Assembly (NCBI GenBank): GCA_016748015.1
Contig: JAAOMT010000617.1
Location: 314,257 to 378,256 of the forward strand
Direction: 5' to 3'
Length of the DNA stretch: 64,000 bases
Origin: Geosiphon pyriformis uo1
Taxonomy: Eukaryota > Fungi > Glomeromycota
The notes under the pieces were generated by a model. The model worked only from the letters and a program-made list of their open reading frames with translations. It was not told where the DNA came from and did no database searches. The stretch's first letter is position 1. Each line of letters opens with the position of its first letter. Below, in pieces: positions 4,398-42,781 of this stretch. A program made the position numbers and the translations under genes.

Positions 4398-4516
4398 GAG
4401 TGAAATGATGAATAAACGAAAGACTCTTCTTTCCCCATCTTATCGATCATGGTGATTCTTATGCTGCTCCTCTCGCTAAGGAGTAAATACTAGCCAGTAT
4501 CCCAAACTGATCACTT
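4398..4516 (+). ncRNA. snR190: Box C/D snoRNA, snR190 homolog
   Basis: Box C ATGATGA 4405-4411, box D CTGA 4507-4510, terminal stem AGTGA/TCACT. TCTTCTTTCCCC (4425-4436) is antisense to conserved LSU rRNA GGGGAAAGAAGA. TCGA(T/C)CATG and GCCAGT elements resemble yeast snR190, and it lies directly upstream of U14 as in other fungi. Confidence 0.85.
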
Positions 4517-4695
4517 TAATAAATATTAATATGTTTGATTCAAAAAATATATAAACAAAATTAAAAATATTAACTCAATTTTTCCTTGAACATATCAGGT
4601 CTATCGTCTAAGTTCCTCACCCCCAATATTGTAAGTAATTTAAAATCTTGAAGCTCGCGATAACATATAAGTCTATATAAGCTTGTATTAGTTTG

Positions 4696-4790
4696 AGTTT
4701 GTATGATGAATATACTATAATTCGCAGTTTCCACCGAAAGGATTAAGTTCCTCGTGATGGTTAACAATCTTCCTTGGATGTCTGACTTTA
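4696..4790 (+). ncRNA. U14: Box C/D snoRNA U14 (snR128)
   Basis: Box C ATGATGA 4703-4709; domain A ATTCGCAGTTTC 4720-4731 (antisense to 18S GAAACTGCGAAT); domain B CTTCCTTGGATGT 4769-4781 (antisense to 18S ACATCCAAGGAAG) abutting box D CTGA 4782-4785. Confidence 0.95.
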
Positions 4791-6369: not shown

Positions 6370-7359
6370 TATTACCAGATGAAATTAGAGATATTGTTTA
6401 GCATGAAATTACCCTTATAAATCTTATCATTAATAAGCATATATTATCATTTCAAATTATCACTTATTATATTAGCAAAATATCCAAAATTATCATTTAA
6501 TTAATAACCCAATTTGTACATAACACAAATGTAACCTAATTGCAATAATCAATCATGCAATACTCCGAACTATGTAACATTCAAAAAGTTTGCTGAAATT
6601 TGTAAGAAATTCGCCGAAATAATTGATAGTTTACCGAAATATCTAATAGTTTGTAGAAATAACTTGTAGTTCACCGAAATGTATCTTTAGTTCAGCAAAA
6701 TTATAGAAAATAGCAAAGTTCAAGTTCATAGAATAGTGTTATGACAAGTTGTATAAAAAAAGAGCTTTTTTTTTTGAGAAAATGTATTTTACTCTAGATT
6801 TATCACTTGGAATCATTCCTACATACACAAAAAGAACTAAATATCAAATAATTCAAAAAAAAACCAAATTCTTTAATTATTGCACTTGGAAAATCCCCAA
6901 AACCCAACTAACATTTTAAAATTGATTAGCTACCAATTTCAGTAAACTGTTAGTGACTCCAGACCTGGATAGAAAACATTTCCCTTGACAGAATTCTATT
7001 TCTTTTACATTTTTTATTTTTATTTTCTTTCTTTTATTTTCTTATCATAATTATTAAGGTAGCCTACAGATGAGATTCCTGTAGAAAAGTTGATTTTCAC
7101 AACAAAGTAACTACACATTTTAGTAAGCTTCCAGACAAGCAATTTCTGGAAAAGAGTTGACATTTACTACAACATAACTACACAAAGCAACTGGCATGGA
7201 ATTGGCTATTCCACTTATAAGCCCAGCAGTTCAAATTATAGGAGATAATTTGAAGATAAATTCAGTTACTGGAGGTTCAACTACATCTAGAAAACGTGAA
7301 TTCATAGCAAATAGGCATCAACAACATTATAGAAAAGAGACCAAAAACCTCTGGTAACA
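6370..7359 (+). repeat. 5' LTR of Gypsy A (990 bp) with an internal ~20-21 bp tandem array (CCGAAAT...TAGTTCA) at ~6590-6700
   Basis: Direct repeat of 15288-15594 plus 16593-17274. Confidence 0.95.
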
Positions 7360-7404
7360 TTTGGTGCTCTTCCATGGAAATAACACAGCAACAACAAATT
7401 CAAA

Positions 7405-9300
7405 GTGGCAACCACACCAGACACAGCAACTCTAGAGTATTACCAGTCAATTTACACACACATCAAACAAAGATTCAACATTCCAGACGGAATTAAAGTT
7501 GTCAAAAAATCAGTATACCAATACATTGAAAACTGCATCAACAATTATTTTTTTGGAAACTACAACATTTCAAAAGTTAGAAGCAATCTCTACAATAATT
7601 TAGTGCACTATTCACAATTGGGAACAGAAGACCTGAACAGTGAAACACTTGCTACCTACTTTCAAGAACTTAATTTTAACATTATTGAGTATTGTAAAGA
7701 AAAATACCCAGTACAGTCTAAATACTCTTTTGACTTTGAATCAGAGACAGAAACAAGCAACAAAAGCAAACAAAAATTGAAGCAATACTCAAAAACCACC
7801 CTAAATACTCCAATACTACCAAAAACAATTGCCAAACACTTACAAACACCTGAACAAGGAACCAGTTCAAAACTCCCACTCACTATTACACCTTTTTCAG
7901 CTTCACTTGCACAAGCAGAAACTCCTAATTTACCTTTAAATCAATTTTCAAGACTAAAAAATTATACATCACCCAGAAGTCCCACCAGACAACAAGAAAC
8001 CCTTCAGACTAGTACCAATTTTCTTGACTATTTAGCAGAAAACACAAGCAAACACTCTGAAACATTAGCCAACGAAGAAAATGTTTTTGAATCCATTGAA
8101 GAAGAAGTAGAACCCGAAGAAAAAAGTGAATTAATAGATAATGAGGAAGAAAACAAAATGACAGCTTATATTGTAAAAATTCCCAAATTTAATGGAGAAG
8201 ATATTGAGACCAGTCCCCAAGAATGGCTCAACCAAGTTAATAAAGCTGGAGATGCAAATAGATGGAATGCTGCTAGAATGTTAAGAACAATTCCCTACTT
8301 TTTCAAAGGAACAACAGATGAATGGTTCAAAAACTTGACCACCCCTTTTAATGACTAGACAGCTTTCAAAACTGCCTTCTTAGAACAATTCACTGATAAC
8401 AACACCTCGTAATATCAAACAAGAACCCTCCGAATCTGTCATAACTTATATTGGGAAATTCAACAAACTTCTTAGACAAATTTGCCAACTTAAAACTAAT
8501 GATTATTATTCCAATGCTCAAATCTTGGATCAATTTATTGTTGGTTTAAAAGATAAACTGATTAAGAAAGTTTGCCTACATGCACTAGAAGATTTAGCCA
8601 CTGCTATTCAACAGGTGAAAAACTATAAAATGGCCATGGAAGAAGCCAACTGTACCAAACTTGTTAACCTAGTTATTGAAAAAACCAGCTCAACAGCTGA
8701 AGAAAAGATTGACCAATTAACCAAAAAAGTTGAACACTACTTCACCAACCAACAGCAACAACAGCAGCCACAGCAATCACAACAAACACAAAGATACCAA
8801 CTTCCACAAAGATGAAATCAAAATAATTTTCCACCACTTTCTAATAACCAGCCTTAGAATTGCCATTATTGTGGAATTTCTGGCCACTGGAAAAGAGATT
8901 GCAGAAAGCTATAATGAGACCAACAAAATAGGAGTAATTAATGTTACCTTTCACCACAGCAATCTTATTATCAACCACCACTACCAGCTTACTATCTACC
9001 AAGACCCCAATACCAAAGTAACTATTATCAGCCTGTCTCACAGCCAATCCAACAGCAATACTAACAACCACCCATACAATATTATCAAGTACCTGCTTGA
9101 AGATTGATTCCACAAAATCAATTCACATCACAAAATTGATACCAAGTAAACAACAATAGGATCAATTCAAACAACCAATTGGTTCTCCAAAATTCAGCTC
9201 AACCAAGATCCAACTACTATCATATTCAAACTAGTTATCTTACAATGCCAGAAGAACAGGATTTTCACTATACTGTACTCTTAGAAGGTAGAGCTGCAGC
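7405..9300 (+). pseudogene. gag: Gypsy A gag (decayed) with CCHC zinc knuckle
   Basis: ORFs 7405-8358 and 8525-8815 are Gag-like (IPKFNGED...PQEWL...; DQFIVGLKDKL). CHYCGISGHWKRDC at 8861-8902, followed by a Q/P/N-rich tail. Confidence 0.9.
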
Positions 9301-12300
9301 ACAATAACAAAACCCTTTCTATATTCCTACCACAATTCCACCAGCCAGAATTGCTGAAAACGCCAACCTTTTAGATATATTTCCTTTTGAATTTAAAGCA
9401 AATGAATCATCATTCTTGCTTAGCAATGCAACAGCTAATGAGCAAAAAGTCATCACTGTAATATACACAGAAACTAAAATAGAAGGAAAGCCAATTCATT
9501 TGATCCTAAACAATGGATTCGCCAAAAGCATCATCACATATCAATTAATACAACAGCTAAAGAGAAATGTTGACCGACCAGCTCAGACAATCATTGTCAC
9601 TGTTTATGGCATGAAAAAGACTCCAGTAGGAGAGATTGACAACTTCCTATTCACAATTGACAGAATTACCATTCCAGTCAAAGTTCTAGTCATAGATGCT
9701 CCCCAATATCAAGCTCTTGTTGGAAACAATTGGCTCCAAAAAGCCAATGCTAATTTGAATTGGGAGACACAAGAGTTAACAATCTCCTACCAAGAACAAC
9801 ATGCCCAAGTACCTGCCACTTGTAGTACATTCAACAAATGCTCCGAAAAAGCCCCGGCTTTTGAATTTGAACCAGAAGAAGAAAAACCCATTATTGAAAC
9901 ATTTATGGCACTTGGATCAACCTCCAATTGGGCTGATAAAACTGAACAACAGTATTTTTCAACATACGATTCTCTTAAAACAAAAGAACCAGTAACATCT
10001 GGATGGAATGTTCCTTGTTTAAAACCAGAACCATGAAAACAATGCCCTTACATTCTACTCAAATGCAAAGATTGCCACAAGAAACTTTCATCAATAGAAG
10101 CCTGCATTTTACCTAAAGAAGAATATGAAAATCATACTTGTTATTACTGCAAGGCTTGCTACAGAGAACGATGGGACCACCTAATAAAAAGAAGTAGAAA
10201 ATGGGACAACACCCCTTGTTTGATTTGTGGAAATATGCTACCAGAAGAATACAATTGGATTAATGTAGCAATGAGAGGAGGAGTCTGTGATCAAACCTGC
10301 CAATATGTTTTATCAATTTCAGAAAAAGTCAAAAGAGGAACACCTTTTGATGCTGTTTACAATAGCATTCTCAACAAACTGTACTATTACCCTCATGATG
10401 CCAAAATGATTTTCGATTTAGCAATGGCTTTAATTAACAAAGCCACTCAAGAAAATGTTCGTCAAATGAAAGAATCAGAATACATTGCATACACCTTTAA
10501 AATTACTGGATACAACTACGAAGATAAAGTAGAAGTATATTACCAAATTGCCAGTTACATCTACCCAACCAAAAAAGCTCAAGCTCAATGGCTAGAGCAA
10601 ATGAACATTAAATTATGTGAGAAATGCATAATGCCTTGCAATGAACAATGGTGTCCTGAATGCTATGCTCTTAGCATTCCCTTGCTCAGTGAAAGTAATG
10701 AATATGAAATTGAATTCAGAGAACCTGAAGCAACAGAAGAAATAGAAACCACACCCATCTATCTCATCGAAAATCAGCCTGCTTCACAACTCAAATACTT
10801 CAACAACAATGGACAAGAAATAAAGTCTAAAAAAGTCCACAAAATTGATATTGGATACAATCTAAGATATCCAGGAAAAGATACTCTTACTCTCAAACCT
10901 AAATTGCTTACAAAAATCAACCTCAAAATTGTTCTCAAAATCCCACCAGGAGCAATAGTCCAAATTACTTCATGATCATCATTGGCGAGCAAAGGAATTA
11001 ATGTTAGAGGAGGAATTATAGATGTGGAATATACAGGAGACATTACAATCATGTTACAAAATGAAACCAATAAATTTTTTCAGATTGAACATGCCGAAAA
11101 AATTGCTCAAGCTATTTATTTACTTTTAATCAACATTTTGGGTTTACAATTAGTCAGTTAAAGAGAACAATTGGGAAAGAATAAAAGAGGAACCAAAGGT
11201 TTTGGTTCAACTGGATGATTCACAGTTCCAGTAAACATAGCTTTTAATGAACAGAATGAATCTTACCAGATTTTATGACTCCCACAACCAATTACTATTT
11301 CACTCTTTGAAGAACATCTGGAAATCTACACCTGCCTAAAGTCAACAACTACACAACAAATTTTTGAATCCAACAAACAAGTCTGCTTGGAACATAATAT
11401 CTCAATCCCAAACATTTATATTCCAAAAGGAACAAAGAAAGTCTGAGTTACTTTTTATAATCCCAACAATTATCTCATAGTTTTATTAAATAACTTAGAA
11501 ATTAGAGTCATTCACAGTAATATCTTTCAACAAGAATTACCCCAAACAGTTCCCAATTTTTCAGAAATCATTGAACATTCACTACCAAAAATCAACCCAA
11601 ATCCCAGTTCTGAAAACTACTATGTTGTCATGGAAAAACTATCTCGAATCAACATGGGACAACTTGAATCACAACAACAGAGCCAGCTCAAAGAGCTAAT
11701 TGCAGAATTTGCCAATATCTTTGCTGAAAACAACAATGACTTAGAAAAAACCGATTTGGTTCAACACCAAATCTATACAGGAGATGCCAAACCAAGGCGA
11801 CAACAAGTCTACTGAGTTGCTCCAGAAAGTCACCAATTTATCCGAAAAGAAGTGCAATAGATGCTTAACAATGGCCTTATTCAACCATTAATGAGTCCAT
11901 GAGCCTCACCTGTGGTCCTAGTTAAAAAAAAAATGGAAAGATATGATTTTGTGTTGATTATCAACAATTCAACAGTGTTACCATTGGAGATGTCTACCCT
12001 TTTTTTCGAATTGATGACATGTTGGATGTCCTTGGAAAGTCCAAATACTTTTCAATATTAGATTTAGAGAGCGAATACTGGCAAGTTGCCATGGATTCCA
12101 AAGATCGCCCCAAAACAGCATTCACCATGTAAGGAGGAAATTACAAGTTCAATGTAATGCCTTTCGGATTATGCAATGCACCAGCAACATTTCAAAGACT
12201 CATAGATGTTGTTTACAAAGGCCTCCTTTGGAAATCAGTAGTTGTTTATCTCGATGATACTGATGTTTATTCACCATCTTTTGAATTACACTTAAAACAT

Positions 12301-13080
12301 CTGTGAAAAGTTTTTCAATGATTACGAAAAGCAGGATTGAAACTAAACATTAAAAAATGCTACTTCGGAAAAACAAGTTTGGCCTTTCTTGGCCACATTG
12401 TGAGCAAAGATGGAATTAAACCAGACTCTAGAAAAATCAGCACTGTCAAGAACTTCAAGACTCCATAAAATACCACAGAATTGAGAGGATTTATTGGATT
12501 AGCTTCCTATTACCGAAAATTTATCAAAGGATTCTTAGAAATCGCAAAACCCCTCAACCAGCTTACTACTAAAAACATCAAATACAAATGGATGGAAAAA
12601 CACCAAAAAGCTTTTAAAATTCTCAAGGAAAAGCTGACAACAGCTCCAATTCTAGCCTACTCAGACTTCAGTAACCAATTTCGACTAGCTACAGATGCTT
12701 TTTACACTGCCTTTGGTGCTATTTTATTACAATTAGATAACAATAGAAATGAGCAAGTAATCGCTTATGCTAGTAGAACATTAAAACCAGCCAAGAAAAA
12801 CTACCCTGCCACAGAACTAGAAACAGCAGCTGTAGTTTGGGCCCTACACTACTTCAACCTTTATTTCAGATCTAAAAAATTCGATATTATCACTGATAAT
12901 ATTGGACTCAAATAACTTCAGAACAAAAACACTCAGCTAAATGCAAAACAAACCTGATGGACAGGATTTTTAGCCAACTACTGATATATTATATACCACA
13001 AACCAGAAAAACTCCACACCAATGTTGATTGTCTCTTAAGAATGAGGCAAGATTAGAATACAAAACCAACACCCATTTGA
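9300..13080 (+). pseudogene. pol: Gypsy A pol: aspartic protease (~9480-9790), Cys-rich domain (~10040-10675), dUTPase, RT (~11780-12480), RNase H (~12670-13050)
   Basis: LILNNGFAKS (decayed LILDSGS protease motif), MPFGLCNAPATFQ, VYLDD at ~12244-12258, LATDA...IAYASRTL...ELETAAVVWAL...IITDN. Many TGA/TAA stops arise from CGA/CAA/TGG. Confidence 0.95.
10790..11215 (+). pseudogene. dut: dUTPase domain within Gypsy A pol
   Basis: All five trimeric dUTPase motifs in one frame: IGYNL (10850-10864), S*SSLA (RSS, CGA>TGA), GIIDVEYTGDI, KIAQAI, RGTKGFGSTG (11186-11215). Confidence 0.93.
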
Positions 13081-13102
13081 ATTAACAACAAAACAACAAA
13101 CA

Positions 13103-14480
13103 ATGAACTCTGAAAATTACAACAATTTTAAACAATATTTGAAAATATTAACAATCCCAACAAGATGAAAAACATTGGTTACAACAACAAGCCAAATAAT
13201 ACTTCTTACACAACAACATTATTTATTATTGAAACTTCAGAAACCCAAACAGTTCACTTAGATTAATACAAGAACATAAAAAAGAAACTATTTTATATAA
13301 CATATACTTAGACCCTTCATCAGCACACCTAGGAAAAGACAGCACCACCTAGAGAACACTAGAATATTATTTTTGGCCTCAAATGAGAAAAGACATTCAT
13401 GAATATGTTAAGTCTTGTGATAGTTGTCAAAGAAGAAAAGGAACTTGTCCTACAGAATCTTTAAACCCAATTAAAGTTGAACAGCCTTTTGACCGAGTTG
13501 GTATCAATTTAGTCAGACCACTCTTTATTACAAACCAAGGAAACTGTTATATTGTAGTAGCTGTAGACTATTTCACCAAATGGCCTAAAGCCAAAGCCAT
13601 TCAATGAGCAGATGCGAAATTAGTAGCAAACTTTATCTACAAAGACATTATTTGTAGACATGGATGTCCAATAGAACTTTTATCTGATCAAGAAACACAT
13701 TTTGTGAACAATTTAATCCAGGAAATTTGTGAACAATTTAATGTCAAGAGACCATTATCTTCACTCTATCATCCACAAACAAATAGACTTGTAGAATGTT
13801 TCAACAGAACATTGTGTGAATCATTAGCCAAAGTCTTAACCAATTTTGAGCAAGAATGGGATCTTTTTATTCCATCAGTGTTACTAGCATATAGAACACT
13901 AAAACAAGATACCACAAAACACACACTATTTGATTTAACTTATGAAAAGACAGCAACATTACCAATTAGTTTCACAGTGGAAACATACCCAGCACAACTA
14001 ATTGATAAAAACAATTTCCAGAAAACACTACAATGAAGAGCCTACACTCTACTTAGCACATTGGAAGGAAAACAATGAATAGCAGCCACCCATATTAAAC
14101 ACTTCCAAGCTCAACAAAAAGAATGACATGATGACAAATTGCCTCCAGTTACCAATGGATTTAAAATCGAAAACAAAGTTCTCTTATACAAAACTAAAGC
14201 TGAAAAACAATGAAGTGAAAAATTTGAAAATAAATGGAATGGACCATTCTTTATCCATGAAATCCTAGGCAATAGATCATACAAGCTAAGACTTGATGAC
14301 AAAATCCTAGCAAAAGTTGCACATGGAGATCATTTGAAACACTATAATTCCAGAAACAATCCTGAACTATTAATTCCACAAATTGATATACATTCCCCTT
14401 TAATCAATCCTGAAGATATTGCCCAAAATTTAGAACCAATAGTTGTCATTGAACAATCTTCCAACTTAAACACTTAATTT
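13103..14480 (+). pseudogene. Gypsy A integrase (separate ORF, decayed)
   Basis: ATG 13103 (MNSENYNNFKQYL...); AHLG...CDSCQRR zinc domain; GINLV/VDYFTKW/LSDQ/VECFNRTL catalytic core; KWNGPFFI GPF motif. No chromodomain recognised. Confidence 0.9.
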
Positions 14481-14599
14481 AAATTTATTATTATAGTTAT
14501 CTCCTTATAATTTAGAAACAATCTCACAAAAACAAAACAAAAATAACATAAAAACCCATACACCAAAAATAATTTTCTTTTATTTTCAAATCTCTTATA

Positions 14600-15319
14600 A
14601 TGACTATTTCTCAAAACATTCAACAATTATCCCAAAAACTAATATTAGGTTTAAAAACAATACCTGAATTATCCATTACTGTTACTGGAAACCACATTAA
14701 TTATACCCAAACAGAAGTAGTTACAAATTTAGTCCCAAATGCACAAAAATATCACCTGTATAAGAAGAACACAAGAAGTTATTCTGGAATTCACCTGCCA
14801 GAACTTTTAAAGCTTGCTTTAAGAGAAAACTTAATACTCACTCCTATTAGTATTCCACCAAATGCTACTATTTAACAAAAACTTTAACTGTGTCTTAATG
14901 AAGAAAACTACGACTATACTCCAATATATAAATATTTCTACATTGGAAAAACACTTCACGAACAAAAACAGGAGCTTATAGCAGCAAACCTCACAAAAGA
15001 AGCTATTCAGAAACAACTCCACAACGAATTCAAGACAACAGCTGGACCTACAAACAGTCATTATAAACTAAGAGCTGTTCTTAGACTTTATAACCTATTC
15101 TACACCTGTGAAAACGTCCTACAAAACCCAATTTTATAGTCTTTGAAGATTCAATACATTGGAAAGCTCACAGAACTGAAATTTCAACAATTTTCAGACC
15201 AAATTTCTTCAATAATTTTGGACTATTATCTGGAAATTACAGACAGTACTTGGACTTTAATGGAGCTCAGTCTTGAGGAGGAGGTTATGTTACCAGACGA
15301 AATTAAAGATATTGTTTAG
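14600..15319 (+). pseudogene. Gypsy A ORF3, unknown ~239-aa protein overlapping PPT and U3
   Basis: Single frame from ATG 14600 to TAG 15317-15319 with three internal stops (TAA, TAA, TAG), each a C>T change from a Gln codon. Alignable by eye to 41427-42083. Confidence 0.75.
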
Positions 15320-17274
15320 CATGAAATTACCCTTATAAATTTTATCATTAATTAGTATATATTATTGTTTCAAATTATCACTTATTACATTAGCAAAATA
15401 TCCGAAATATTATTTAATTAATAACCCAATTTGTACATAACACAAATGTAACCTAATTGTGATGATTAATCATGCAATACTCCGAACTATGTAATATTCA
15501 AAAAGTTTGCCAAAATTTGTAAGAAATTTGCCGAAATAATTGATAGTTCACCGAAATATCTAATAATTTGCAGAAATAACTTGTAGTTCACTGATGTTAC
15601 CAGAGGTTTTTGGTCTCTTTTCTTAAATATTGGTAATGTTAATTTGCTGTGAATTCACGTTTTCAGGAAGTAGTTAAACCTCCAATAACTGAATTTATCT
15701 TCAAATTATCTCCTATAATTTGAACTGCTGGACTTATAAGTGGAATGGCCAATTCCTTGCCACTTACTTTATGTAGTTACATTGTAATAAATGTCAACTC
15801 TTTCCCAGGAATTGCTCGTCTGGAAGCTCACTAAAAATGTGTAGTTACTTTGCTGTAAAAGTCAACTCTTCTACAGGAATCTTGTCTGTAAGCTACCCTA
15901 ATGATTGTAATAAGAAAAGAAAAGAAAAATAAAAGAAATGTAAAAGAAATAGAATTTTGTCAAGAGGAACGTTTTCTATCCAGGCCTGGAGTCACTAACA
16001 GTTTACTGAAATTGGTAGCTAATCAATTTCGAAATGTTAGTTGGTTTTTGGGGATTTTCCAAGGGCAATAATTAAAGAATTTGGTTTTTCAAATTATTTG
16101 GTATTTATTTCTTTTTGTGTGTGTAGAAATGGTTCTAAGTAATAAATCTAAAGTAAGATACATTTTCCAGAAGAGAAAAGCTCTTCTTTTATACAACTTG
16201 TTGTAGTACTAGTTTATGAACTTGCACTTTTTTCTTTTTGCCCAAATTCCGGCAAACTAAAGATACATTTTGATGAACTACAAGTTATTTCGCTGAACTA
16301 TTGATTAATTTGGGTGAACTATTCATAATTTCAGCGAATTTCTTATAAATTTCAGCAAATTTCTGTAAATTTCGGCAAATTTTTAAATGTTACAGAGTTC
16401 AAGGTATTGTGTAATTTGATCATCTTACTTTCTGTTATACTAATTAGATTATTTTAATTGAATCGTGATATGTGATAATTGATTAAATAATAACTGATAA
16501 TTTGAAATGATATTAATATACTAATGAATTATAGGAATTATAAGGGTAATTTCATGCTAATTTAATAGCTAAAATTCTACTGGTAACACCGAAATGTATT
16601 TTTAGTTCAGCAAAATTATAGAAAATAGCAAAATTCAAGTTCATAGAATAGTGTTATGACAAGTTGTATAAAAGAAGAGCTTCTCTCATCAAAAAAATGT
16701 ATCTTACTCTAAATTTATCACTTGAAATTATTCCTACATACACAAAAAAAAATAAATATCAAATAATTCAAAAAAAAACCAAATTCTTTAATTATTGCAC
16801 TTGGAAAATCCCCAAAACCCAACTAACGCTTTAAAATTAATTAGATACCAATTTTAGTAAACTATTAGTGATTTCAGGCCTGGATAGAAAACGTTTCCCT
16901 TGACAGAATTCTATTTCTTTTACATTTTTTATTTTTATTTTCTTTCTTTTATTTTCTTATCATAATTATTAGGGTAGTCTACAGACAAGATTCCTGTAGA
17001 AGAGTTGATTTTCACAGCAAAGTAACTACACATTTTAGTGAGCTTCCAAATGAGCAATTCCTAGGAAAGAGTTAATATTTACTACAACGTAACTACACAA
17101 AGCAACTGGCATGGAATTGGCCATTCCACTTATAAGCCCAGCAGTTCAAATTATAGGAGATAATTTGAAGATAAATTCAGTTACTGGAGGTTCAACCACA
17201 TCCAGAAAACGTAAATTCACAGCAAACAGGCATCAATAATATTACAGAAAAGAGACCAAAAACCTCCAGTAACA
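15288..17274 (+). repeat. 3' LTR of Gypsy A, interrupted at 15595-16588
   Basis: 15288-15594 and 16593-17274 together match 6370-7359. Confidence 0.95.
15595..16588 (-). mobile_element. Solo LTR (994 bp) of a sister subfamily, inserted in inverted orientation
   Basis: Begins TGTTACCAGAGGTTTTTGGTCTC (reverse complement of the A LTR end) and ends TGGTAACA. TSD CTGA (15591-15594) / CCGA (16589-16592); the empty site in the 5' LTR is CCGA. Confidence 0.95.
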
Positions 17275-17278
17275 CCAG

Positions 17279-18723
17279 CCACTTAAGCTGATCAGAACAA
17301 TACTATACAACTATATAAATTAAAACTAAGCTACCAATGTCCAAAAAAAACAAACAAGATTTGCAAAAACCAAAATACACATCAAAGACCTTAATAATAC
17401 CAAGCAATTTGACCACACTAGCAAAACATCTCAAAGCCAAACCAGATACTAATATGAAAGCCAAACCATCTAGAGGAATCAGTTCACTTCTCTTCAAACA
17501 TGCACAATGCTTAGCATAGACCAACCAGATGTTATCTTTATAACCAAGACTAAGAGAATACACAAAATTAACAATTTTCAATCTATCAACTTTGAGATTA
17601 TAGAAGATAGAAACAGTTTCATTAAACCAACCATTAAAAACAAAGCCCTTATAAAAAGCTGTAGACACAGAGGAATTAGAAACACAAGATGCCAACAACT
17701 GTAATACACTTGAAAAATGATGAAAGAAACCAGAAAGTGTTTTCCAAAAAGCCACATAGGAGTTTAATATATTATGATAAGCAAAGATATTGACCTCATA
17801 AGAGAAAACATGATCTGACAACTCCACTTCACCACAGTATAAACACAACACACTAGGGTAATGTCTATTATAAAGGCACTTCTGAACAGTAACAGACAGC
17901 TGATAGTACAAAGCTTTTATAAAATAGATATATGCATTAGCCAAAAACTTACTAGTAAAACTAGCAGCCATATGCAAATCAGAATGTTATACCAATAATA
18001 AGCTGAGCCAATCAACATCTGAAAGCAAACTGTCTGCCAAAAACTTTAAACTAAAACCAATCTTCCAATGCACTTGACAAATAAAATGAAAAATATCATA
18101 AACAAAGTGTCTAGAATTGTCAGAAACAACACTATCATCAGTCACTATAAAGTGTTCATCCAAGTAAAAAAGAAGATACCAGCCAGAAAAAGAAGTGGCA
18201 TCAGTTATTGTATTAACATGCTTATTCCCCAAAATGCCAGAGTAACCTTTTACTTTATGTTAGCCAACTCTCAAATTCTTACTATGAATAATGTTCACAA
18301 TATACTGGTGCTTAACCCAACACTAATTATGAAAATCAGGGCTTATCAGACTCAATTCTGACTTATAAGCATCTAAAGCAGATTGACTATCCAAAAACAA
18401 GTTAACAGAACTAAATAGGAAAACACACTCTAAAGCCAATATAATAGTCTGCAATTCCACCAAAGTAGATAATATTAAACCTAACACATCAACACCCAAA
18501 CCCAAATTAATGTCCTCGAAAAAAACTGCAGCATCAGCCCTTCTATTAACTATGTTCAGATCCTTTAAAGACCCATCTGTATAAACAGACAAACTGCCAG
18601 AAACAACTTGAAAAAGACAATCATGAACAGATATAAAATTACAAGAATCAAAAATGTTTAAAAGACCAACACCATCCAAAACAGTAGGAAAAGTAGGAGA
18701 AGAAACCATGCTTTTGAAAATGC
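17279..18723 (-). mobile_element. 5'-truncated LINE: ORF2 RNase H and C-terminal Cys/His domain
   Basis: VYTDGSL...STLVELQTI...LFLDSQSAL (18323-18745) and CLYCGEVELSDHVFS (17303-17977). Homologous to 27809-29100. Confidence 0.9.
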
Positions 18724-34323: not shown

Positions 34324-35251
34324 AGCACTACTTGAAGCAGCAGTCAGGTTTACCACAAAAAGATTATTTGATTGAGAAATGTTTGAAAAAGATAGCAAGA
34401 AAAAATAAAAACTTCTTTTTTGAAAAAATTTGTTTTTTGGAGTTTTTTGGAAGTAAAAGAAAAAAAAAGTTTTAATTTTTTGTAATTCTAGGCTATAATT
34501 TCTTTTTCTCAAAAAAAACTTTTCTTTTATATAGTTATAATACTGTTACAGTTGAAACTTATACTTTTTATTAATTATCACATGTATTAGCCACTGATGT
34601 CATATAAATTAGCCACTCTATTTTTAGTAAGTAATCATTGACTTAGTTGTTGACCTAATTATTAACCATTTTTGATAGCTATATAAGTAATGAATCTTTT
34701 AACTGTAGAAAAGCATAAAGAAATCAAGGAAATCAAATAAATAAAATAACAACTTTCATCTCAATCCTTCTCTTATTGCTAATTTTTTTTTCCATACTTT
34801 CAAGTATCTGAACATTTTAAAGATAAAAGATTACTTGTTGGTTATTTCTTACTTTTTTTCTGAAATGTGTAATTGCAACATTTGGAGATTATTGAATAAA
34901 ACGTAACTGAAGAGCATATCTAATACTTGATATTGAATTCTAAGAGCGCCGACATAAAGCATAGAATTATACCAAGTATAATCATTTGTTGACAGTACAG
35001 ACTATTCCTCTACTTTCAGATTCCCCAGTTATCTTTGAAAAGTATAGCAACTGAGATATTTTATGAGACTAATCTCATATATTGAATTCATACTTATTCA
35101 ATTCACTCTTTGAAATTGAATTCCCTTTGATTATTCCCATCATCTTACAATCCTGTTCTCCCTTGCTATCCATTAGCTTGTTACTCCAACCTGTAACATA
35201 AAAGTGGTGCTCCCTGTAAAGTTGTCAAAATCCACTTTGTTTCCTATTTGT

Positions 35252-36802
35252 ATGGGTGATTATTCATATCTGCCACAACAATCAAAAAAACACTTTAAAG
35301 CACACAACAAAAATGACCTAGATTTTATTGAACTTAATCTTTTGCCCTCCTGCTTGATTTGCTTCCCCATTGAAGAACAATTCAGCAGACAATTTCAAGA
35401 CTTTTGGAACTGGTTCCTAAACAAACATTCAGCTGAAATCTACACAACTTATACAATCTATTACTTTGATTAAGCTTATTTTGAAGACAACTTTGAAGAA
35501 AGAAACAATAGTATCAATCAGCTTTTATATTCTACAACTTTTGAACAACAGCCCCCTGATCTCGAATATCTGAATCATCAAATCCACATTTGGATTGTTG
35601 CCCATCAATCAACAGAAACTTCTCTTGAAACAGAAGAAGAAAGCTATCAAACCACTCCTGTTTTTGATCTCTTTTCAAGTGAATTAAAACACTCTACACA
35701 AACAGTTACATCTGAACCAATGGCTCAAGACCCTTTGCAACAAAACATTCTGATTGCCCTCCAAGATATACAGACTGCTTTAGAGCGAAGAAACAACATC
35801 TCATTATTATTATTCAAAGATAATGTCCAAGATCTAATTAAATAGTTGGATGATTTTAAAAGAGCTGCCACAGCAAACCAATATGATAATGAATACAAGT
35901 TCCAAATCATTGGTGGCTACCTCCAAGGCTCTCTTACTACTTGGTTCTTACAAGAAACCAATGCCAATGCTTAGCAAAAAATTATTAGATGAGCACTGGC
36001 AAATGCTGAAAAAGACAACATCTCTTTCACTATCTGGTTTGAAACTAAATTTAGAACTCCTATCTTAATCTCAAAATGGTGTATAGAATTAGAAAGAAAA
36101 ACTCAAGGCTCTGGTGAGATTGTGACAGAATATGCTAAAGCAATAAGAAAACTCATTAAATGGGTAGACTCTGGAAGAAATTAAACAGAAAAGCAGAAAA
36201 TACATTCTTTTACAAAAAAACTGAGAACTGATCTATTATATGCTCTTTGGTCCCTCCTGGTCTTGAAAAATAATCCCACAATGGACATAGCCATTGAACT
36301 TGCTCAGAGAATAAAAGACAATCAAAAAATGCACCTAGGATCCACACTTCCAGTTTTTGCTCCTGTTTTTGTTATGGCTTCTGCTCCTCAAATGGCTGCT
36401 ATCTCTTTTGCTGCCTAAACTCAAGACCCAAATGAACAGTTAATAGATAGACTTACAGTTAATCTTGTCTGGCTATTAGAATCATTGGCCCAAGCAGTTA
36501 GAGAAAATCAACAACCCTAAAGACTCAGATTTGAACCTCATTTCAATCAGCCTTAACAACTACTATATCAAAGACAGCAAAATCGTAGCCCATCTATGTG
36601 CTATCATTGTGGACTAACTGGATATTTTTCAAGAGACTGCAACAATTCTTCATTGCCCTTTTCAGCTTCTAGAAACAATGACAATCAAAACAACAGAACC
36701 ATTAACAATAATGTTCCCAACCAAAGAACCAATTATGCCAACATCAATTTCTTTGGAGAGGATTTCCTAGTTGAAGCCACTGTTTATCAGCCTTTAAACT
36801 AG
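35252..36802 (+). pseudogene. gag: Gypsy B gag (decayed)
   Basis: Gag-like segments (LDDFKRAATANQY; RKTQGSGEIVTEYAKAIRKL); CYHCGLTGYFSRDC at ~36599; stop TAG 36800-36802. The start is approximate. Confidence 0.85.
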
Positions 36803-36830
36803 TAGGCGCACCTCCAAAGGGTGAGAGTAC
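36793..36830 (+). promoter_or_regulatory. -1 programmed ribosomal frameshift signal (gag to pol)
   Basis: T TTA AAC (36793-36799) is in the gag frame directly before TAG. The -1 frame is open into pol ORF 36889. Hairpin CACCT-ccaaa-GGGTG just downstream. Confidence 0.8.
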
Positions 36831-39485
36831 AAGCCAATTAGAAGAAAACCCCTTTTATGCTTTTAACCTAACTAATGATAATCATAATATGGATGAACTA
36901 GCAATCAACACTTCTGAATCAACCAGAAAGAAGAAAAAAGCTAAGGTTGATTTTGTTTTGGACCCAAACAAAGCATCCAAATCATCTGTTAATAACAATG
37001 AACCACCAAAGACTAAGATTTTTAAAAATCCTCCAAAGTTGGAACCCCCAGAAATTGTACAAAAATCTGGACTCTATTCTGTTGTTAAAGATCTCATGGA
37101 AACTCCAGCACACATTACATTTGGCCAACTGATGACCCATCCACAATTCAGAAAAGATCTTCACAAATCATTGATACCAAAAAAAAAGACACCAAAGACC
37201 AACAAATACTCTCGCCAAGCTGGACTTGCTGATAATAGCAATGTCATTCCTCTGATTTGTAAAGCCCAAGTGGCTGGCTACTTCATTGATCTGATCCTAG
37301 ACAGTGAATCATCTGTTAGTGTAATTACCAAACATTTTTTTGAAGCAATTGGCAGAAAAATTGATGAGCCTTCCATAAGACCAATGACTAATGTATATGG
37401 TAACAAGAAGAAAGGCCTGGGCATAACCAAAGCTATTCCTGTTCACATCAATGGTATCAGCATCAAAACAGATATGAAAGTATCTGAAGCAAAAGAGTAC
37501 ACCATTATTGTTAGTAATAAATGGCTTAAGAAAACCAAAGCACTACTTGACTATGAACTTTGTTAGCTAACCATCAGATGTGGTGAGAAACCTATTGTGG
37601 TTAAATGCTGACATTGGACAACTCCTCCAGTACCCAAGCAGAACCAAGAAGAAGAACAATCAGATGAATCAGATAATAATAAGAGCAATGATAAAAAAGA
37701 TCAAGAAGAACTAGAAAAAACTGCTGAACTCGCTTATACCATCTTCACCAGCAATGGCAAGCCACTGGACAATGTTAAAGCTAACAAAGAAAGAATCATG
37801 ATAAATGGCAAGCTGATCTGCTGGCCCTATTATAATATTCTCAGAAGAACTTTTGACAGAAAATCTAGCAAAAAAGCAAAATACAGTTATTAGTGGCATG
37901 GCCTTTGTGCATGATACTGATGTAATAAACCTTTGTATTTACCAAGTAATAAATGCAAATTCTGTCTAATCTACTACAAAGATTGGGAACCAATTAGCTT
38001 GATATTTCAAGAAGAACTTAAAGAAATACAAAAGTTTTTTGAGAATGAACCACCTGAAATCCAATCACTAGTTGTAAAACAAAGAAAACCTTTTCCTAAA
38101 AAAAGAAAAATGGACATTGAAAATCTGTTGGCTAGAAATAGCCCAGTTATCTTAAAAAAAGGTGATGCCCCTGGATGAATCCATGTGATACAACACACTA
38201 TCACCACCAAAGAAACTTGCCCCATCCATTTGAAGCCTTATCAATCCAATTGACACAATGATGAGTTTATCAAGAAAAAAATAAACTGGATGAAAGATCT
38301 TGGATTTATACAAAAAACCAAGAGTGAATGGGTTTCCCAGTTGTAGTGGTATCCAAGAAAGGTGGAACCCTATGCTTCTGTGTTAACTACCACCAATTAA
38401 ATGTCATCACTATAAGAGACATGTATTCACTTTCCAAAATTAATACAATGCTAGATAAATTCAATGGTGCTGTTTTCTTCTCAACTATTGATTTAACTGC
38501 TGGATTCTGGCAACTAGAAATGGATCCAGAAAGCAGAAAGAAAACTGCTTTTATAACCAAGTATGGCACCTATGAATTCACAGTCATGCCTTTTGGTCTC
38601 ACCAATACTCCTCCCACCTTTCAATGCCTAATGGATAAAGTGTTTGAATCAGTAAAAAAAAACTTTGTTCTGGTTTACTTGGATGACATAATAGTATATT
38701 CAAAAACCTGGGATGAACACCTTGAACATTTACAGAAGGTTTTTAACCTGCTCAGAAATGCTGGCCTTAAGATCAACCCAATCAAATCTTTCTTTAGATG
38801 CCAATCCACCCAATTTCTTGGTCATCTTGTTACAAAAGATGGAATTTTTCCTGACCCAGCTAAAGTTCAAAAAGTTCAAAACATTAGACAACCAATGAAT
38901 GTTCCTGAACTATGCTCTTTTCTTGGTTTGGCCTTTTACTATCACAAATTTATCAAAGATTTTTCCAAAATTGCCTTTTCTCTTAATCAACTATTCAAGA
39001 AAAATGTCAATTATCACTGAGACACTCATCAACAAAAAACTTTTGAATTTTTAAAGGAAAAACTTGTTATTGAACCAATTCTCAAACAACCTGATTTGAA
39101 CCAACTTTTTATCCTCCACACTGATACATCTGGCTATAAACTTGGTGCTGTTTTTTTACAGAAAGATGAAAATAACAGAGAACATGCCATAGCATATGCC
39201 AGTAGATCCCTCATACCAGCAGAAAAGAGCTATTTAATTACTAAACAAAAATGTCTAACAGTAGTTTGGGCTATCAACTACTGGGATCAATATCTTCTTG
39301 GTGCAAAATTCTTAGTGGTAACAAATCATCAAGCCTTGGTTTGGCTGCACAAGAAAAAAAAGCTGGAACACAAAAAAATAACTTGTTGGATACTTTACTT
39401 GGATGAATTCAACTATGATATTCAATATCACAAAAGAGCAAATCATCAAAATGCCGACACTTTATCTAGACTTACCATTCAGTAA
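36799..39485 (+). pseudogene. pol: Gypsy B pol: protease, RT, RNase H (decayed)
   Basis: LILDSESSVS; IDLTAGFWQ, MPFGLTN, VYLDDII; LHTDTSG...IAYASRSL...VTNHQAL...NADTLSR, then stop at 39483-39485. Confidence 0.95.
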
Positions 39486-39543
39486 CAGTACAACCTCTCA
39501 AACCAAACCAACTTAATTATTAGTAACTTCTTTATAAACAAAC

Positions 39544-40785
39544 ATGATAATGGACTTGGACAACTACTCTGTCTTAATGAAATTTTTGGGTAAAGAACAA
39601 TATCCACCTGAATACACTTGACAGCAAAGAGAACATTTGTGCAAACAATCAAATTTTTATTTGATCTGTTAGAACCAATTATACAAAAAAAACAGAAAAG
39701 ATCTTGACTGCCCCCAAAGAGTCATCAGATTTGAAAAAAGAAAAATTGTAATATACAACATGTACACTGATCCCTTAGCTGGACACTTTGGAAAAACAAA
39801 AACAATTCAGAAAACTTTAGCTCACTATTATTGGCCTACCTTGGAAAAAGACATTGCTGAATACATCAAAACCCGTGACATCTACCAAAGAAAAGGCAAA
39901 TCCAATCGCAAAAAAAATATCTATCCAATCTCTGTTGGTCAATCATTTGACAGAATTGGTATAGATATTATTGAATCTTTAACAATTACTCCTAATGGCA
40001 ACAAATATATTATCACAGCTACCAACTATCTTACAAAGTGAGTAGAAGCAAGAGCCACCCCAGACCAAACAGCAGTCTCAATAGCTAATTTTATTTATAA
40101 AAATATTATCTGCCATCATGACTGCTCCAAAGAACTTTTATCTAATAGAGAAAAAGCTTTTCTCAGTACACTGGTTGAAAAACTTTGTAGAAAAATGGGA
40201 ATATATCATAAACTTTCCTCCTCTTATTACTCCCAAACAAATGGTCTAGTAGAACATTTCAATAGAACATTATGTGAAACCCTAACCAAAACCAGTAAAG
40301 AAACAAACTTATGGGACAAAGTACTGCTTTTAGCTTTGTTTGCTTATAGAACTGTGAATCATGACATAACAAGTTATGAACCTTTTTATCTGCTCTATGA
40401 ATGCATGGCAACACTACTAATAGAAATTGATATTGAAACAATACTCTTTGAAGAGATCACAATAGGGAATTACAAAGACATTTTGCAAAAAAGACTTAAT
40501 ACTATTCTTGACTCCTTGGTAAAAGCACGAATAATTGCTTTTGAAAAGATAAAACAGTTTCAAGAAAAGCTTAAAAAAAAGAAAACCTATAAAACACTTT
40601 CTTTAAGTGTTGGTGACTTGATATTGGAATATTGTTCAGACAGAGACAATGTCTATGGTGATAAATTTTCTAGCTGATAAAAAGAACTCTTTATAGTCAA
40701 CAAAGTTTTGAACAATGGTTCTTATATTCTTCAAGATCAATCTGAAACAATCTTCAATGATTGTCCTGTTCATTGAAGTCACATA
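39544..40785 (+). pseudogene. Gypsy B integrase (separate ORF, decayed, 3' end replaced by an insertion)
   Basis: ATG 39544/39550 is in frame with GHFG...YYWP, GIDII, TNYLTK, TNGLVEHFNRTL. Confidence 0.9.
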
Positions 40786-41395
40786 AAATTAAACAGTAGT
40801 TACATAACTAAGTGTTTAGCTCTTCTAAATATTATTTTTGTTCTTTTTGTGTAGATGCCAAGTCTTGGTAGTATTTGTGGAATTGCTCTGGGTTACTTAT
40901 AATATTAAAAAATATATTTGAATTTGGGATAAGAATGGTTTTAACTGGTTCTTGTAAGTTATTTTTAATTGTCAATATTTTATTAAACGAAATGTTTTCA
41001 ACTTTAGCACTTATTATTCACCAAATTTTGTTTTTATTGTGTAAGTAACCATTCAAGCATGAGAGTGTTTAGTTCTATGCAGTAATAAAAAAAGTTCCTC
41101 GGCTTATCCAATTGCTAATAAAAATCATGTATTGACATGATGTATTGCACATTTTTCTTTGACCAGAAATGTTATTCTACATTTTTTTATCAAGTAATGT
41201 TATTTCACAAATAAGACATAATTTATTGTTCCACTTTTTTTGTTGTTTTGGGTAGCCAAAACATTTTTAATGACATGGCTTGTAGTAATAGTGATGGTAC
41301 ACAATTCAAAAAATACCATAAATGACCTAATTGGCTGCCTGTTGTGGTAATACCAACTCAAATGATCAACAAAAATCAAGTATAAATAAATGCAC
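40782..41395 (-). mobile_element. Antisense fragment of another Gypsy pol (Cys-rich domain) embedded in element B
   Basis: The minus strand translates YYYKPCH*KCFGYPKQQKKWNNKLCLICE...CNTSCQY...YQDLASTQKEQK*YLEELNT*LCNYCLI, collinear with Gypsy A 10140-10640. Confidence 0.8.
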
Positions 41396-41426
41396 CATTT
41401 CCAAAACAGAGGTATCTTTAATCGAC

Positions 41427-42083
41427 ATGAACAATTATTTTCTGAATCAAAACATTTAAAACACCTTCTATACTCTTCATGAGTATTGGATCAAAAACTA
41501 TTCAAATACTACTCTGACCATTGGAAAACAAACCACCATAACTGATAATAGTGGAACACATATTGTTATTAGACCAAAAAAAACCACTACCAAAAAAGAA
41601 AGAATTGGTAGTAAAATAGATAAATATCTATTGGAAAGTATAACAGCAGTTATACTCCCACCTTGCAACACAATTGGAAAAACACTTCAAGAAATCTTAT
41701 CCATAGACAAAAACTTGTCATATGGAAGGCAATTAGAACTTTATGGTCACCTTGGTGAAATTATAGAGGATATAAAACTCATGAAGAAAACAACTTCAGA
41801 GATACAGACAAAAATTTTGGGCATTATATAGTTAAATGTCTTAAGAGTTTTAACTATTGCTAAAAGAGCCAAAACTCTAATACAAAAATTTGGTCTCCTG
41901 AATACAAAACTCATTTCACTTCAAGTGTTATATATCTTATTAACAAAAGACTTCAACAAACTAGTTAGCTTTGAGTTAGATAAAACTCTTTCAATAGATT
42001 ACATCATAAATAGCTTAATTTTATCAGAGCTCAATTTCTTTGGAGAGAATGATGTTATAGTTGAAACTTATACTTCTTATTAA
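41427..42083 (+). pseudogene. Gypsy B ORF3, unknown ~218-aa protein overlapping PPT and U3
   Basis: One frame from ATG 41427 to TAA 42081-42083 with two Gln-derived stops (41457, 41829); includes track ORF 41631-41831. Confidence 0.75.
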
Positions 42084-42781
42084 TTATCACATGTATTAGC
42101 CACTCTATTTTTAGTAAGTAATCATTGACTTGATCAATGACCTAACTGTTGACCTGATCATTGACTTGATCATTGATCTGATTAATGACTTAATCATTGA
42201 TCTGATTATTAACCTGATTATTGACTTAGTTATTAACTTGATCATTGACCATTTTTGATAGCTATATAAGTGATGAATCTCTTAATTGTAGAAAAACATG
42301 AAGAAATCAAGAAAATCAAATAAATAAAATAACAACTTTCATCTCAATCTTTCTCTTATCGCTAATTTCTCTTTCCATACTTTCAAGTATCTGAACATCT
42401 TAAAGATAAAAAATTACTTGTTAGTTATTCTTTACACTTTTCCTGAAACGTGTAATTACAACATTTGGAGATTATTGAATAAAATATAACTAAAGAGCAC
42501 ATCTAATACTTGATATTGAATTCTAAGAGTACTGACATAAAGCATAGAATTATACCAAATATGATCATTTGTTAACAGTACAGACTATCCCTCTACCTTC
42601 AGATTCCCCAGTTATTTTTGAAAAGTATAGCAACTGAGATATTTTATGAGACTGATCTCACACATTGAATCCATACTTATTCAATTCGCTCTTTGAAGTT
42701 GAATTCTTTTTAATTATTCCTATCACCCTATAATCCTGTTTTCTCTTGCTATCCGTTAACTTGTTACTCCAATCCATAACA
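42053..42781 (+). repeat. 3' LTR of Gypsy B with a 12-bp tandem array (TTGACCTGATCA-like) at ~42124-42250
   Basis: Direct repeat of 34544-35198, 74 bp longer mainly through array copy number. Confidence 0.95.

What the first reader, a model, noticed from the sequence alone, without database searches (positions are those of the whole stretch)
14600..15319. Unknown third ORF in the env position, reading through the PPT into U3, conserved between two divergent Gypsy families
Seen: both complete elements carry, after integrase, a ~220-240 aa single-frame ORF (A 14600-15319; B 41427-42083) broken only by CAA/CAG>stop changes. They align by eye despite unrelated LTRs: QNIQ/QNI*, YFYIGKTL/YGHLGEII, TKEAIQKQL/TTSEIQTKI, LRAVLRLYNLF/LTIAKRAKTLI, IQYIGKLTELKFQQF/LQVLYILLTKDFNKL, MELSLEEEV/SELNFFGEND. 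Both cross the PPT and stop ~30 nt inside the 3' LTR, and both have GAGCTCA just before the PPT. I see no signal peptide or TM helix, so it is not a classical envelope; the layout recalls lentiviral nef. Inference: a lineage-wide accessory protein, for example anti-silencing, RNA export or particle movement between nuclei in coenocytic hyphae. I cannot place it in a known family.
Basis: partly seen in the sequence, partly recalled or inferred. Interest (0 to 1): 0.85.

Follow-up and report, generated by a model that had tools for sequence, protein, structure and literature searches.

The report
Orphan third gene in Geosiphon retrotransposons
Two dead Gypsy-type jumping genes of a fungus, most likely Geosiphon pyriformis, each carry after integrase a real extra gene of no known protein family; the first has distant relatives in other elements and is predicted to be a soluble helical protein, likely a nuclear regulator of its own element, while its kinship to the second is only weakly supported.

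Summary
Both ORFs are real. A (14600-15319) and B (41427-42083) lie between integrase and the 3' LTR of two complete, decayed Ty3/gypsy elements and stop 32 and 31 nt inside the LTR. Each has many intact sister copies among Geosiphon pyriformis gene models (191 and 130 hits). ORF3-A belongs to a wider family: two more Geosiphon lineages and two metagenomic proteins at 20-30% identity, one of them seen in the same position of a gypsy element (L001). AlphaFold gives a confident helical core (pLDDT >90) with no clear match in Pfam, PDB or viral structures. There is no membrane segment, so it is not an envelope. A-B homology is only weakly supported: BLAST and hhalign fail, while a global profile alignment gives z 3-4. 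GAGCTCA is a positional DNA/RNA motif, and the U3 tail is short, variable and absent in one lineage, so the nef analogy is superficial. The A family keeps a PY-type nuclear-import-like motif in a flexible basic linker. Best guess: a nuclear DNA-binding regulator of the element's own expression; RNA export is the main rival. Function is untested. It is a new family within a known kind (additional ORFs of LTR retrotransposons).

The parts
6370..7359 (+). Element A 5' LTR (990 bp; first TG decayed to TA), preceded by target-site duplication CCAG
7362..7373 (+). Element A putative primer-binding site, beginning TGGTGCTC as in element B
   Evidence: tRNA partner not identified
7384..9034 (+). Element A gag region, frameshifted; long N-terminal extension, capsid-like part, zinc knuckle
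9308..13056 (+). Element A protease, Cys-rich insert, dUTPase, RT and RNase H; frame stops at 13056
13103..14477 (+). Element A integrase, starting at its own ATG 46 nt after the RNase H stop; ends in an SH3-like domain, no chromodomain match
14516..14599 (+). 84-nt G-free leader directly before the ORF3-A start, the longest G-free run in the element (next 48 nt); 71 nt at the same place in L001; absent in B
14600..15319 (+). ORF3-A, 239 codons, dead copy (stops at codons 92, 96, 180)
15263..15269 (+). GAGCTCA motif, 25 nt before the LTR
15275..15284 (+). Element A polypurine tract, inside ORF3-A
15288..17274 (+). Element A 3' LTR (15288-15594 and 16587-17274), split by an inverted solo LTR of the same family at 15595-16586; followed by CCAG
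34544..35198 (+). Element B 5' LTR (655 bp), preceded by target-site duplication ATAC
35255..39485 (+). Element B gag, protease, RT, RNase H; frame stops at 39485
39544..41385 (+). Element B integrase with its own ATG, interrupted at about 40772-41293 by an inverted fragment related to the Cys-rich insert of A-type pol; last codons end 41 nt before ORF3-B
41427..42083 (+). ORF3-B, 218 codons, dead copy (stops at codons 11, 135)
42027..42033 (+). GAGCTCA motif, 26 nt before the LTR
42042..42049 (+). Element B polypurine tract, inside ORF3-B
42053..42781 (+). Element B 3' LTR, followed by ATAC

Best explanation
ORF3 is a real accessory gene of these Gypsy elements, dead in both window copies, whose product is predicted to be a soluble helical protein that likely enters the nucleus and likely binds DNA of its own element to keep it transcribed against host silencing. 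Shown: open frame, many intact sister copies, protein-level conservation to 20-30% identity, position after integrase in A, B and L001, no membrane segment, no known family. Predicted: a small N-terminal helix/hairpin/helix unit, a flexible basic linker and a compact helical core (residues about 82-200). Inferred: separate expression (own ATG, G-free leader in A and L001), nuclear import through the linker (PY-type motif in the A family, plain basic cluster in B), and nucleic-acid binding by the basic helix-turn-helix pair around the conserved G-x-T-N turn. The read-through of the polypurine tract and LTR start is likely a by-product of compact packing. B is likely (about 65%) a very distant member of the same family.
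For: Real gene: 191 of 382 and 130 of 409 candidates; of the 120 listed each, 65 are 221-239 aa and 20 are 218 aa; 0 of 3000 shuffles. Selection: 40 differences fixed between subfamilies A1 and A2 are more conservative than 105 private changes (mean BLOSUM62 0.20 vs -0.46, p 0.01), and 26 of the 40 fall in residues 25-99 against 8 in residues 100-199. A and L001 match in ORF3 only as protein in the coding frame (27%; no blastn hit outside the polypurine region), while RT-RH and integrase are 60-61% identical: fast but constrained evolution. Fold: pLDDT 80 overall, above 87 in every 10-residue block from 81 to 200. Nuclear: a [RHK]x2-5PY motif occurs at the same place in A1 (20 of 36 copies; Pro in 22, the rest Leu or Ser, as C>T decay would give), A2 (8 of 27), both metagenomic proteins, C and D, inside the linker with pLDDT below 50; chance per lineage 2-6% (rule from PMC2408616). 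DNA binding: basic segment at residues 121-160 in P0268 and in B (+7, +6); ParB/Spo0J/KorB DNA-binding domains, the CHD1 C-terminal domain and Orc6 recur among the weak structural neighbours (Z 3.3-4.2). Motive: CG is depleted to 0.07-0.19 of expectation in both elements, and related fungi methylate transposons.
Against: No binding or activity was tested. The best structural match has Z 4.7 among 48,161 chains, below what the tool calls meaningful, and RNA-binding and unrelated helical proteins score as well. The Pfam DUF1016_N hint (5 of 57 members, E 0.015-0.12) did not hold in hhalign or in the E, C/D and B profiles. Net charge of residues 121-160 is only 0 to +4 in A copies. B has no PY in 41 of 41 aligned copies. 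PY-type signals are typical of RNA-binding cargo, which fits the RNA rival as well. The elements are heavily mutated at CG, so any anti-silencing did not protect these copies. No transcript evidence. dN/dS could not be computed (no DNA of sister copies), and annotated gene models over-represent unbroken copies.
Confidence: 0.35

Rival explanations
1. ORF3 is a nuclear RNA-binding regulator that exports unspliced element RNA or sets the splicing balance, working like CERV of Cer1 or retroviral Rev.
For: Integrase and ORF3 have their own ATGs in A, B and L001, so subgenomic RNAs are likely needed; branch-point/acceptor-like sequences lie just after the integrase stop in A and L001; yeast PY-signal cargoes are mRNA-processing proteins; CERV is a precedent in an LTR retrotransposon (abstract); the PNPase helical domain is among weak structural neighbours (Z 3.4-4.6).
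Against: No transcript data; acceptor-like matches are common in AT-rich DNA and were not scored against shuffles; no export-signal pattern is shared by all lineages (by inspection; lineage D lacks the tail); no known RNA-binding fold matched.
Confidence: 0.22
2. ORF3 is an integration or nuclear-entry cofactor that tethers the integrase complex to chromatin, standing in for the chromodomain that these integrases lack.
For: Integrases of A and B end in an SH3-like or no recognised domain, with no chromodomain match; ORF3 directly follows integrase; nuclear-signal-like linker; CHD1 C-terminal domain and Orc6 among weak neighbours.
Against: No interaction evidence; many gypsy elements without a chromodomain have no third ORF (established knowledge); ORF3 diverges much faster than integrase (27% vs 60%).
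Confidence: 0.12
3. ORF3 is a cytoplasmic particle or movement protein that carries element particles between nuclei of the coenocytic hyphae, or a suppressor of host small-RNA silencing acting on host proteins.
For: Position in the envelope slot; soluble, fast-evolving; accessory transposon proteins are reported as rich in predicted host contacts (passage); small RNAs target young transposons in Rhizophagus.
Against: No membrane segment; no match to viral structures (0 with E <= 0.001); conserved nuclear-signal-like motif.
Confidence: 0.16
4. ORF3-A and ORF3-B are unrelated genes captured independently into the same slot, and their likeness comes from composition, the start position and the shared DNA motif. 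(This concerns kinship only and can hold together with any function above.)
For: BLASTP E 5.9; hhalign 0.3-1.6% against 83-99% for true A-family pairs; B core scores z 0-0.6 on the A core profile, and B ranks 3rd (full) and 2nd (core) among non-A peaks in a six-frame scan; the B profile does not pick out ORF3-A; different leaders, no PY in B.
Against: End-to-end profile alignment without the motif-encoded tail beats 200 of 200 shuffles in four schemes (z 3.2-4.2; eight unrelated frames reach at most z 2.5), and the signal rises as the A profile widens; HMM match over B residues 6-124 at pairwise E about 1e-4; same slot, size and order of motifs; RT identity of 45% predicts near-saturation of so fast a gene.
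Confidence: 0.35
5. The frames are non-functional leftovers, open only because the elements spread recently.
For: Both window copies are broken; no RNA evidence.
Against: Full-length colinear homologues at 20-30% identity, frame-specific conservation, conservative fixed changes, confident fold from the alignment. For B the test is weaker: only one family is known and just 2 fixed differences were found.
Confidence: 0.04

Closest known systems
Sense additional ORFs between pol and the 3' LTR of LTR retrotransposons (aORF-3S; Vicient and Casacuberta 2020, PMC7264820, first 10,000 of 24,000 characters read)
   Same: Same slot and sense; present in many copies of the family; function unknown.
   Different: Fungal; no membrane segment; no Pfam family; overlaps the polypurine tract and LTR start.
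Non-envelope ORF3s of bdelloid rotifer LTR retrotransposons (Rodriguez et al. 2017, PMC5408684, passages)
   Same: Third ORF after integrase, some 210-230 aa; some carriers have dUTPase, as element A does.
   Different: Those are GDSL, DEDDy, coiled-coil or membrane proteins; none of these families matched here.
CERV of C. elegans Cer1 (Sun et al. 2023, PMC10309623, abstract)
   Same: Accessory nuclear protein of an LTR retrotransposon, made apart from Gag-Pol.
   Different: Function is shown for CERV only; no sequence comparison was made; splicing is not shown here.
VANC anti-silencing proteins of VANDAL DNA transposons (passages in PMC6719617, and PMC13547354)
   Same: Model for a transposon accessory protein acting on its own family; fast-evolving.
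   Different: Plant DNA transposons, related to MAIN; no Pfam or structural match here; no tandem target motif was sought or shown.
Foamy-virus tas/bel-2 and lentiviral nef (tas and bel-2 named in a figure legend of PMC7828637; their function and the extent of the nef/U3 overlap are recalled)
   Same: Accessory ORFs at the 3' end, next to or overlapping the 3' LTR.
   Different: Here only 5-11 codons lie in the LTR and one lineage stops before it; no envelope gene; no match among viral structures.
Fungal chromovirus elements drawn with an 'additional ORF of unknown function' and dUTPase (Novikova et al. 2010, PMC2864245, passages)
   Same: Fungal gypsy elements with extra ORF; dUTPase between protease and RT as in element A.
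   Different: Those carry chromodomains; homology of their extra ORF to this one was not tested.

Membership tests
Ty3/gypsy LTR retrotransposon (host elements) | Domain order protease-RT-RNase H-integrase between two LTRs with target-site duplication | tested here: met
Chromovirus | Chromodomain at the integrase C-terminus | tested here: not met
   No chromodomain at E <= 1 in the integrase regions scanned; the last 30 codons of B's integrase beyond the insertion were only inspected
Additional ORF (aORF-3S) of LTR retrotransposons | Sense ORF between pol and the 3' LTR | tested here: met
   A, B and L001; B and D gene models fused to the integrase end
Additional ORF (aORF-3S) of LTR retrotransposons | Present and conserved in many copies of the family | tested here: met
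   the share of all copies that carry it is unknown (no genome held)
Additional ORF (aORF-3S) of LTR retrotransposons | Expressed from its own (often spliced) RNA | not testable with these tools
   no RNA holder listed
Env / env-like fusion proteins | Transmembrane anchor | tested here: not met
   max 19-residue hydropathy 0.44-1.52 in 9 of 9 proteins
Env / env-like fusion proteins | Signal peptide | tested here: inconclusive
   No predictor available; the N-terminus is an amphipathic helix without a hydrophobic core by hydropathy
Lentiviral Nef | Large part of the ORF inside U3 (recalled) | tested here: not met
   20-38 nt of overlap in A1, A2, B, L001 and (from the protein end) P0266; none inferred in D
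Lentiviral Nef | Nef fold / Pfam family | tested here: inconclusive
   not listed
DUF1016_N (YhcG N-terminal domain, PF17761) | Pfam score above the curated cut-off of 32.8 bits | tested here: not met
   12.9-15.8 bits in 5 of 57 members
DUF1016_N (YhcG N-terminal domain, PF17761) | Profile-profile match to natural members | tested here: inconclusive
   30 of 50 fetched loci aligned; hhalign 0.1-0.6%; own local alignment z 3.0-3.9 for A alone, 2.4-2.6 for the wide profile, none for E, E+C+D or B
ParB/KorB-type helix-turn-helix DNA-binding domain | Structural superposition of the core | tested here: inconclusive
   Z 4.2, rmsd 5.2, 87 aligned (1vz0); Z 3.4, rmsd 5.3, 97 aligned (1r71); within background
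PY-type nuclear localisation signal | R/H/K-x2-5-PY motif | tested here: met
   A1, A2, both metagenomic proteins, C, D; not in B; lost in the window's A copy
PY-type nuclear localisation signal | Disordered segment of 30 or more residues, overall basic | tested here: inconclusive
   Basic in most, but the coil is about 15 residues in P0268 (pLDDT < 50 at 41-51) and 28 in A
VANC-type anti-silencing factor | Sequence-specific demethylation of the cognate family | not testable with these tools
   needs expression experiments
CERV/Rev-type export factor | Required for export of unspliced element RNA | not testable with these tools
   needs expression experiments

The most novel reading that the evidence does not exclude
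Gypsy elements of Geosiphon and related fungi form a four-cistron class (gag, protease-RT-RNase H, a separately started integrase, ORF3) whose ORF3, shared by lineages as distant as A and B, is a nuclear protein of a new fold that binds its own element and counters methylation-based silencing: a VANC-like counter-defence in a fungal LTR retrotransposon that would help explain why LTR elements cover about 41% of this genome.
Probability: 0.18. Interest if true: 0.82.

Novelty: new variant of a known kind. Interest (0 to 1): 0.5.

Why it matters
LTR elements cover 41.2% of the G. pyriformis genome (PMC11952901, passage), and hundreds of its 'hypothetical proteins' turn out to be copies of these third genes, so the finding corrects annotation at once. 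The family gives a confidently modelled helical domain with no clear known structure and a concrete, testable nuclear-import motif. If it is a counter-silencing or RNA-export factor, it would be a rare mechanistic handle on how transposons expand in mycorrhizal-type fungi that methylate their repeats. Additional ORFs as such are well known, so without a function the surprise is moderate.

Tried and rejected
Pfam, NCBIfam and PDB sequence searches: nothing at cut-off; FtsQ (E 0.0035-0.2) rejected, since it rests on one short helical stretch while the model here is all-helical there. First AlphaFold run on 67 close copies was poor (pLDDT 48); its fold searches were set aside. Fold searches with the good model: 0 matches at E <= 0.001 in PDB and viral libraries, best Z 4.7; this does not show that the fold is new, and the N-terminal unit was barely tested. 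ORF3-B was not folded (both jobs went to the A family). DUF1016_N lead followed up and left inconclusive. The global hhalign control gave trivial alignments and was uninformative; the six-frame scan produced gap-tail artefact peaks behind the true hits, which were left out when ranking B. A 21-nt DNA match between ORF3-A and ORF3-B is out of register with the profile alignment and is treated as chance. No RNA holder listed. No relatives in viral contigs (88, 89) or prokaryotic genomes; one locus in metagenome contigs. No genome was held, so no genome-wide HMM or dN/dS. Literature searches listed no paper describing this ORF; the library lacks most subscription papers, including the Geosiphon genome papers, and no supplementary files were opened, where repeat libraries could hold these elements. 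A recalled likeness to a common helical domain of Glomeromycotina hypothetical proteins could not be tested and is not used as evidence.

Full report
Setting. All 120 listed hits of each ORF are hypothetical proteins of Geosiphon pyriformis, the best at 82-88% identity, so the window most likely comes from that fungus. No genome was held. Element A spans 6370-17274 and B 34544-42781; both have protease, RT, RNase H and integrase in gypsy order, paired LTRs and 4-bp target-site duplications. The LTR pairs differ at 75 of 993 (A) and 72 of 655 (B, partly in a poorly aligned repeat) positions, nearly all transitions, and CG is at 0.19 and 0.07 of expectation. Both copies are dead.

The observation. 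ORF3-A has 239 codons with 3 internal stops and ORF3-B 218 with 2; 0 of 3000 shuffles come close. They end 32 and 31 nt inside the 3' LTR. The window copies differ from the family majority at 26 of 239 and 40 of 219 positions; four stops replace Gln and one sits at a decaying Arg codon. Hydropathy shows no membrane segment in 9 of 9 proteins.

The A family. The search with ORF3-A found 191 proteins among 382 candidates, in two subfamilies about 65% identical. A profile search of 1.84 billion representatives gave 35 hits at E <= 0.001. I looked up 8 of them: 6 are Geosiphon gene models, including lineages C (P0269, P0270) and D (P0271, P0272) at 17-30% identity, and 2 are unnamed metagenomic proteins (P0266, P0268) at 25-30%. 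hhalign links these lineages at 83-99%. The contig of P0268 (L001) reads RT-RNase H, stop, integrase, spacer, ORF3, polypurine tract, LTR, with the stop 32 nt inside the LTR. For D the position is inferred from gene models fused to the integrase end (7 of 51 hits carry the integrase SH3 family). For C no position is known. Against L001, RT-RNase H and integrase of A are 60-61% identical and ORF3 27%, matching only as protein in the coding frame. Fixed differences between A1 and A2 are more conservative than private ones and cluster outside the core. Together this shows selection on the protein. dN/dS could not be run, and gene models favour unbroken copies.

The B family. It has 130 hits among 409 candidates, 20 of the 120 listed being intact 218-aa proteins. 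Only one lineage is known. Kinship to A is the weak point. BLASTP and hhalign fail. An HMM of the wide A family matches B residues 6-124 at pairwise E about 1e-4 with high composition bias. An end-to-end profile alignment, with the motif-encoded tails removed, beats 200 of 200 shuffles in four schemes (z 3.2-4.2), while single lineages reach only z 1-2.5 and eight unrelated frames at most 2.5; the local version gives z 2.1-3.3. In a six-frame scan of the window B is near the top but behind one or two decoys, and six intact B proteins score z 0.9-2.4 on the full profile and 0-0.6 on the core. A and B are 45% identical in RT-RNase H, so saturation of ORF3 is expected. I put homology at about 65%.

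The 3' end. GAGCTCA lies 25, 26 and 25 nt before the LTR in A, B and L001. In D the proteins end in GAQF or a variant (16 of 48 end in AQF), which is how this motif reads in another frame, followed by a stop; this is inferred from protein only. The LTR begins at different codon positions in A and B. The LTR-encoded tail is 5-11 residues and has low model confidence. So the motif is best read as a DNA/RNA signal and the overlap as compact packing, not as a nef-like gene.

Structure. With 57 sequences spanning all lineages the model of P0268 reached mean pLDDT 80 and pTM 0.65 (best of five; the others 62-68): helix 7-21, hairpin 25-38, coil, helix 54-66, then a helical core 82-200. Foldseek found nothing at E <= 0.001 in PDB or viral structures. 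The wide structural search had no chain at Z >= 5 among 48,161; ParB/KorB DNA-binding domains, the CHD1 C-terminal domain, Orc6 and the PNPase helical domain are among rows at Z 3.3-4.6, which is background. A Pfam hint to DUF1016_N in 5 of 57 members did not survive profile tests.

Clues to function. The coil holds a Pro-Tyr pair preceded by R, H or K in all A-family lineages, matching the C-terminal rule for Kap104/transportin signals (PMC2408616, passages); the coil is shorter than the 30 residues of that rule. B has a basic cluster in the same place and no PY. Invariant core residues include the Asn of a G-x-T-N turn between two helices. ORF3 has its own ATG 122, 41 and 316 nt after the integrase stop in A, B and L001; A and L001 have G-free leaders of 84 and 71 nt. 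In all three elements integrase also begins at its own ATG after an RNase H stop (spacers 46, 58, 24 nt), so subgenomic expression is likely; no RNA run was listed.

Mechanism. I commit to a nuclear, DNA-binding regulator of the element's own transcription (0.35). The steps gene, selection and solubility are shown; the fold is predicted; nuclear import, DNA binding and effect on silencing are inferred. RNA export or splicing control (0.22), a cytoplasmic particle or suppressor role (0.16) and integration tethering (0.12) remain open.

Known context. Extra ORFs between pol and the 3' LTR are well described in plants (PMC7264820, first part read) and rotifers (PMC5408684, passages), and drawn for some fungal elements (PMC2864245, passages). 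CERV (PMC10309623, abstract) and VANC (PMC6719617 and PMC13547354, passages) are functional models. Passages of PMC3248453, PMC11952901 and bioRxiv 2021.03.30.436303 did not mention such an ORF; seven searches listed no description, within the limits of the library. Earlier notes of this scan report similar third ORFs in other genomes; no sequence look-alike was found, and they are not counted as support.

Verdict. A real, previously unnamed accessory gene family of fungal gypsy elements with a confidently predicted, unmatched helical core; the two-family claim is probable but unproven, the nef analogy fails, and function is open. New variant of a known kind; interest 0.5.

Noticed in passing
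window 13056-13103, 39485-39544; L001 774-799: In all three elements the pol frame stops right after RNase H and integrase starts at its own ATG behind an A/C-rich spacer (46, 58, 24 nt). A separately started integrase is unusual for gypsy elements; one literature search gave no clear precedent in its listing.
   Followed up: partly
window 9308-11270: Element A has a Cys-rich insert of about 250 residues and a dUTPase between protease and RT; dUTPase there is known from other fungal gypsy elements, the Cys-rich insert had no Pfam match.
   Followed up: partly
window 7384-8225 and 35255-35700: Both gag regions have long N-terminal extensions without a Pfam match.
   Followed up: no
window 15595-16586 and 3-538: An inverted solo LTR of the A family (81% identical) is inserted in A's 3' LTR with a 4-bp duplication; another, more diverged inverted piece lies at the window start.
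   Followed up: yes
window 40772-41293: An inverted fragment related to the Cys-rich insert of A-type pol interrupts the end of B's integrase.
   Followed up: yes
window 7362 and 35205: Both elements share the primer-site start TGGTGCTC and make 4-bp target duplications despite unrelated LTRs.
   Followed up: no
window 27700-34600 (-) and 17177-18853 (-): Decayed LINE-like elements with two ORFs and a C-terminal RNase H-like region, judged from translations only.
   Followed up: no
window 4233-5472 and 56319-57541: Two inverted copies, about 90% alike, of an unidentified repeat of about 1.2 kb, 51-53 kb apart.
   Followed up: no
window 58950-60300 (+) and 45883-46518 (-): A decayed transposase-like frame, and a possible host gene with signal-peptide-like start and a hydrophobic segment, seen in translations.
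   Followed up: no
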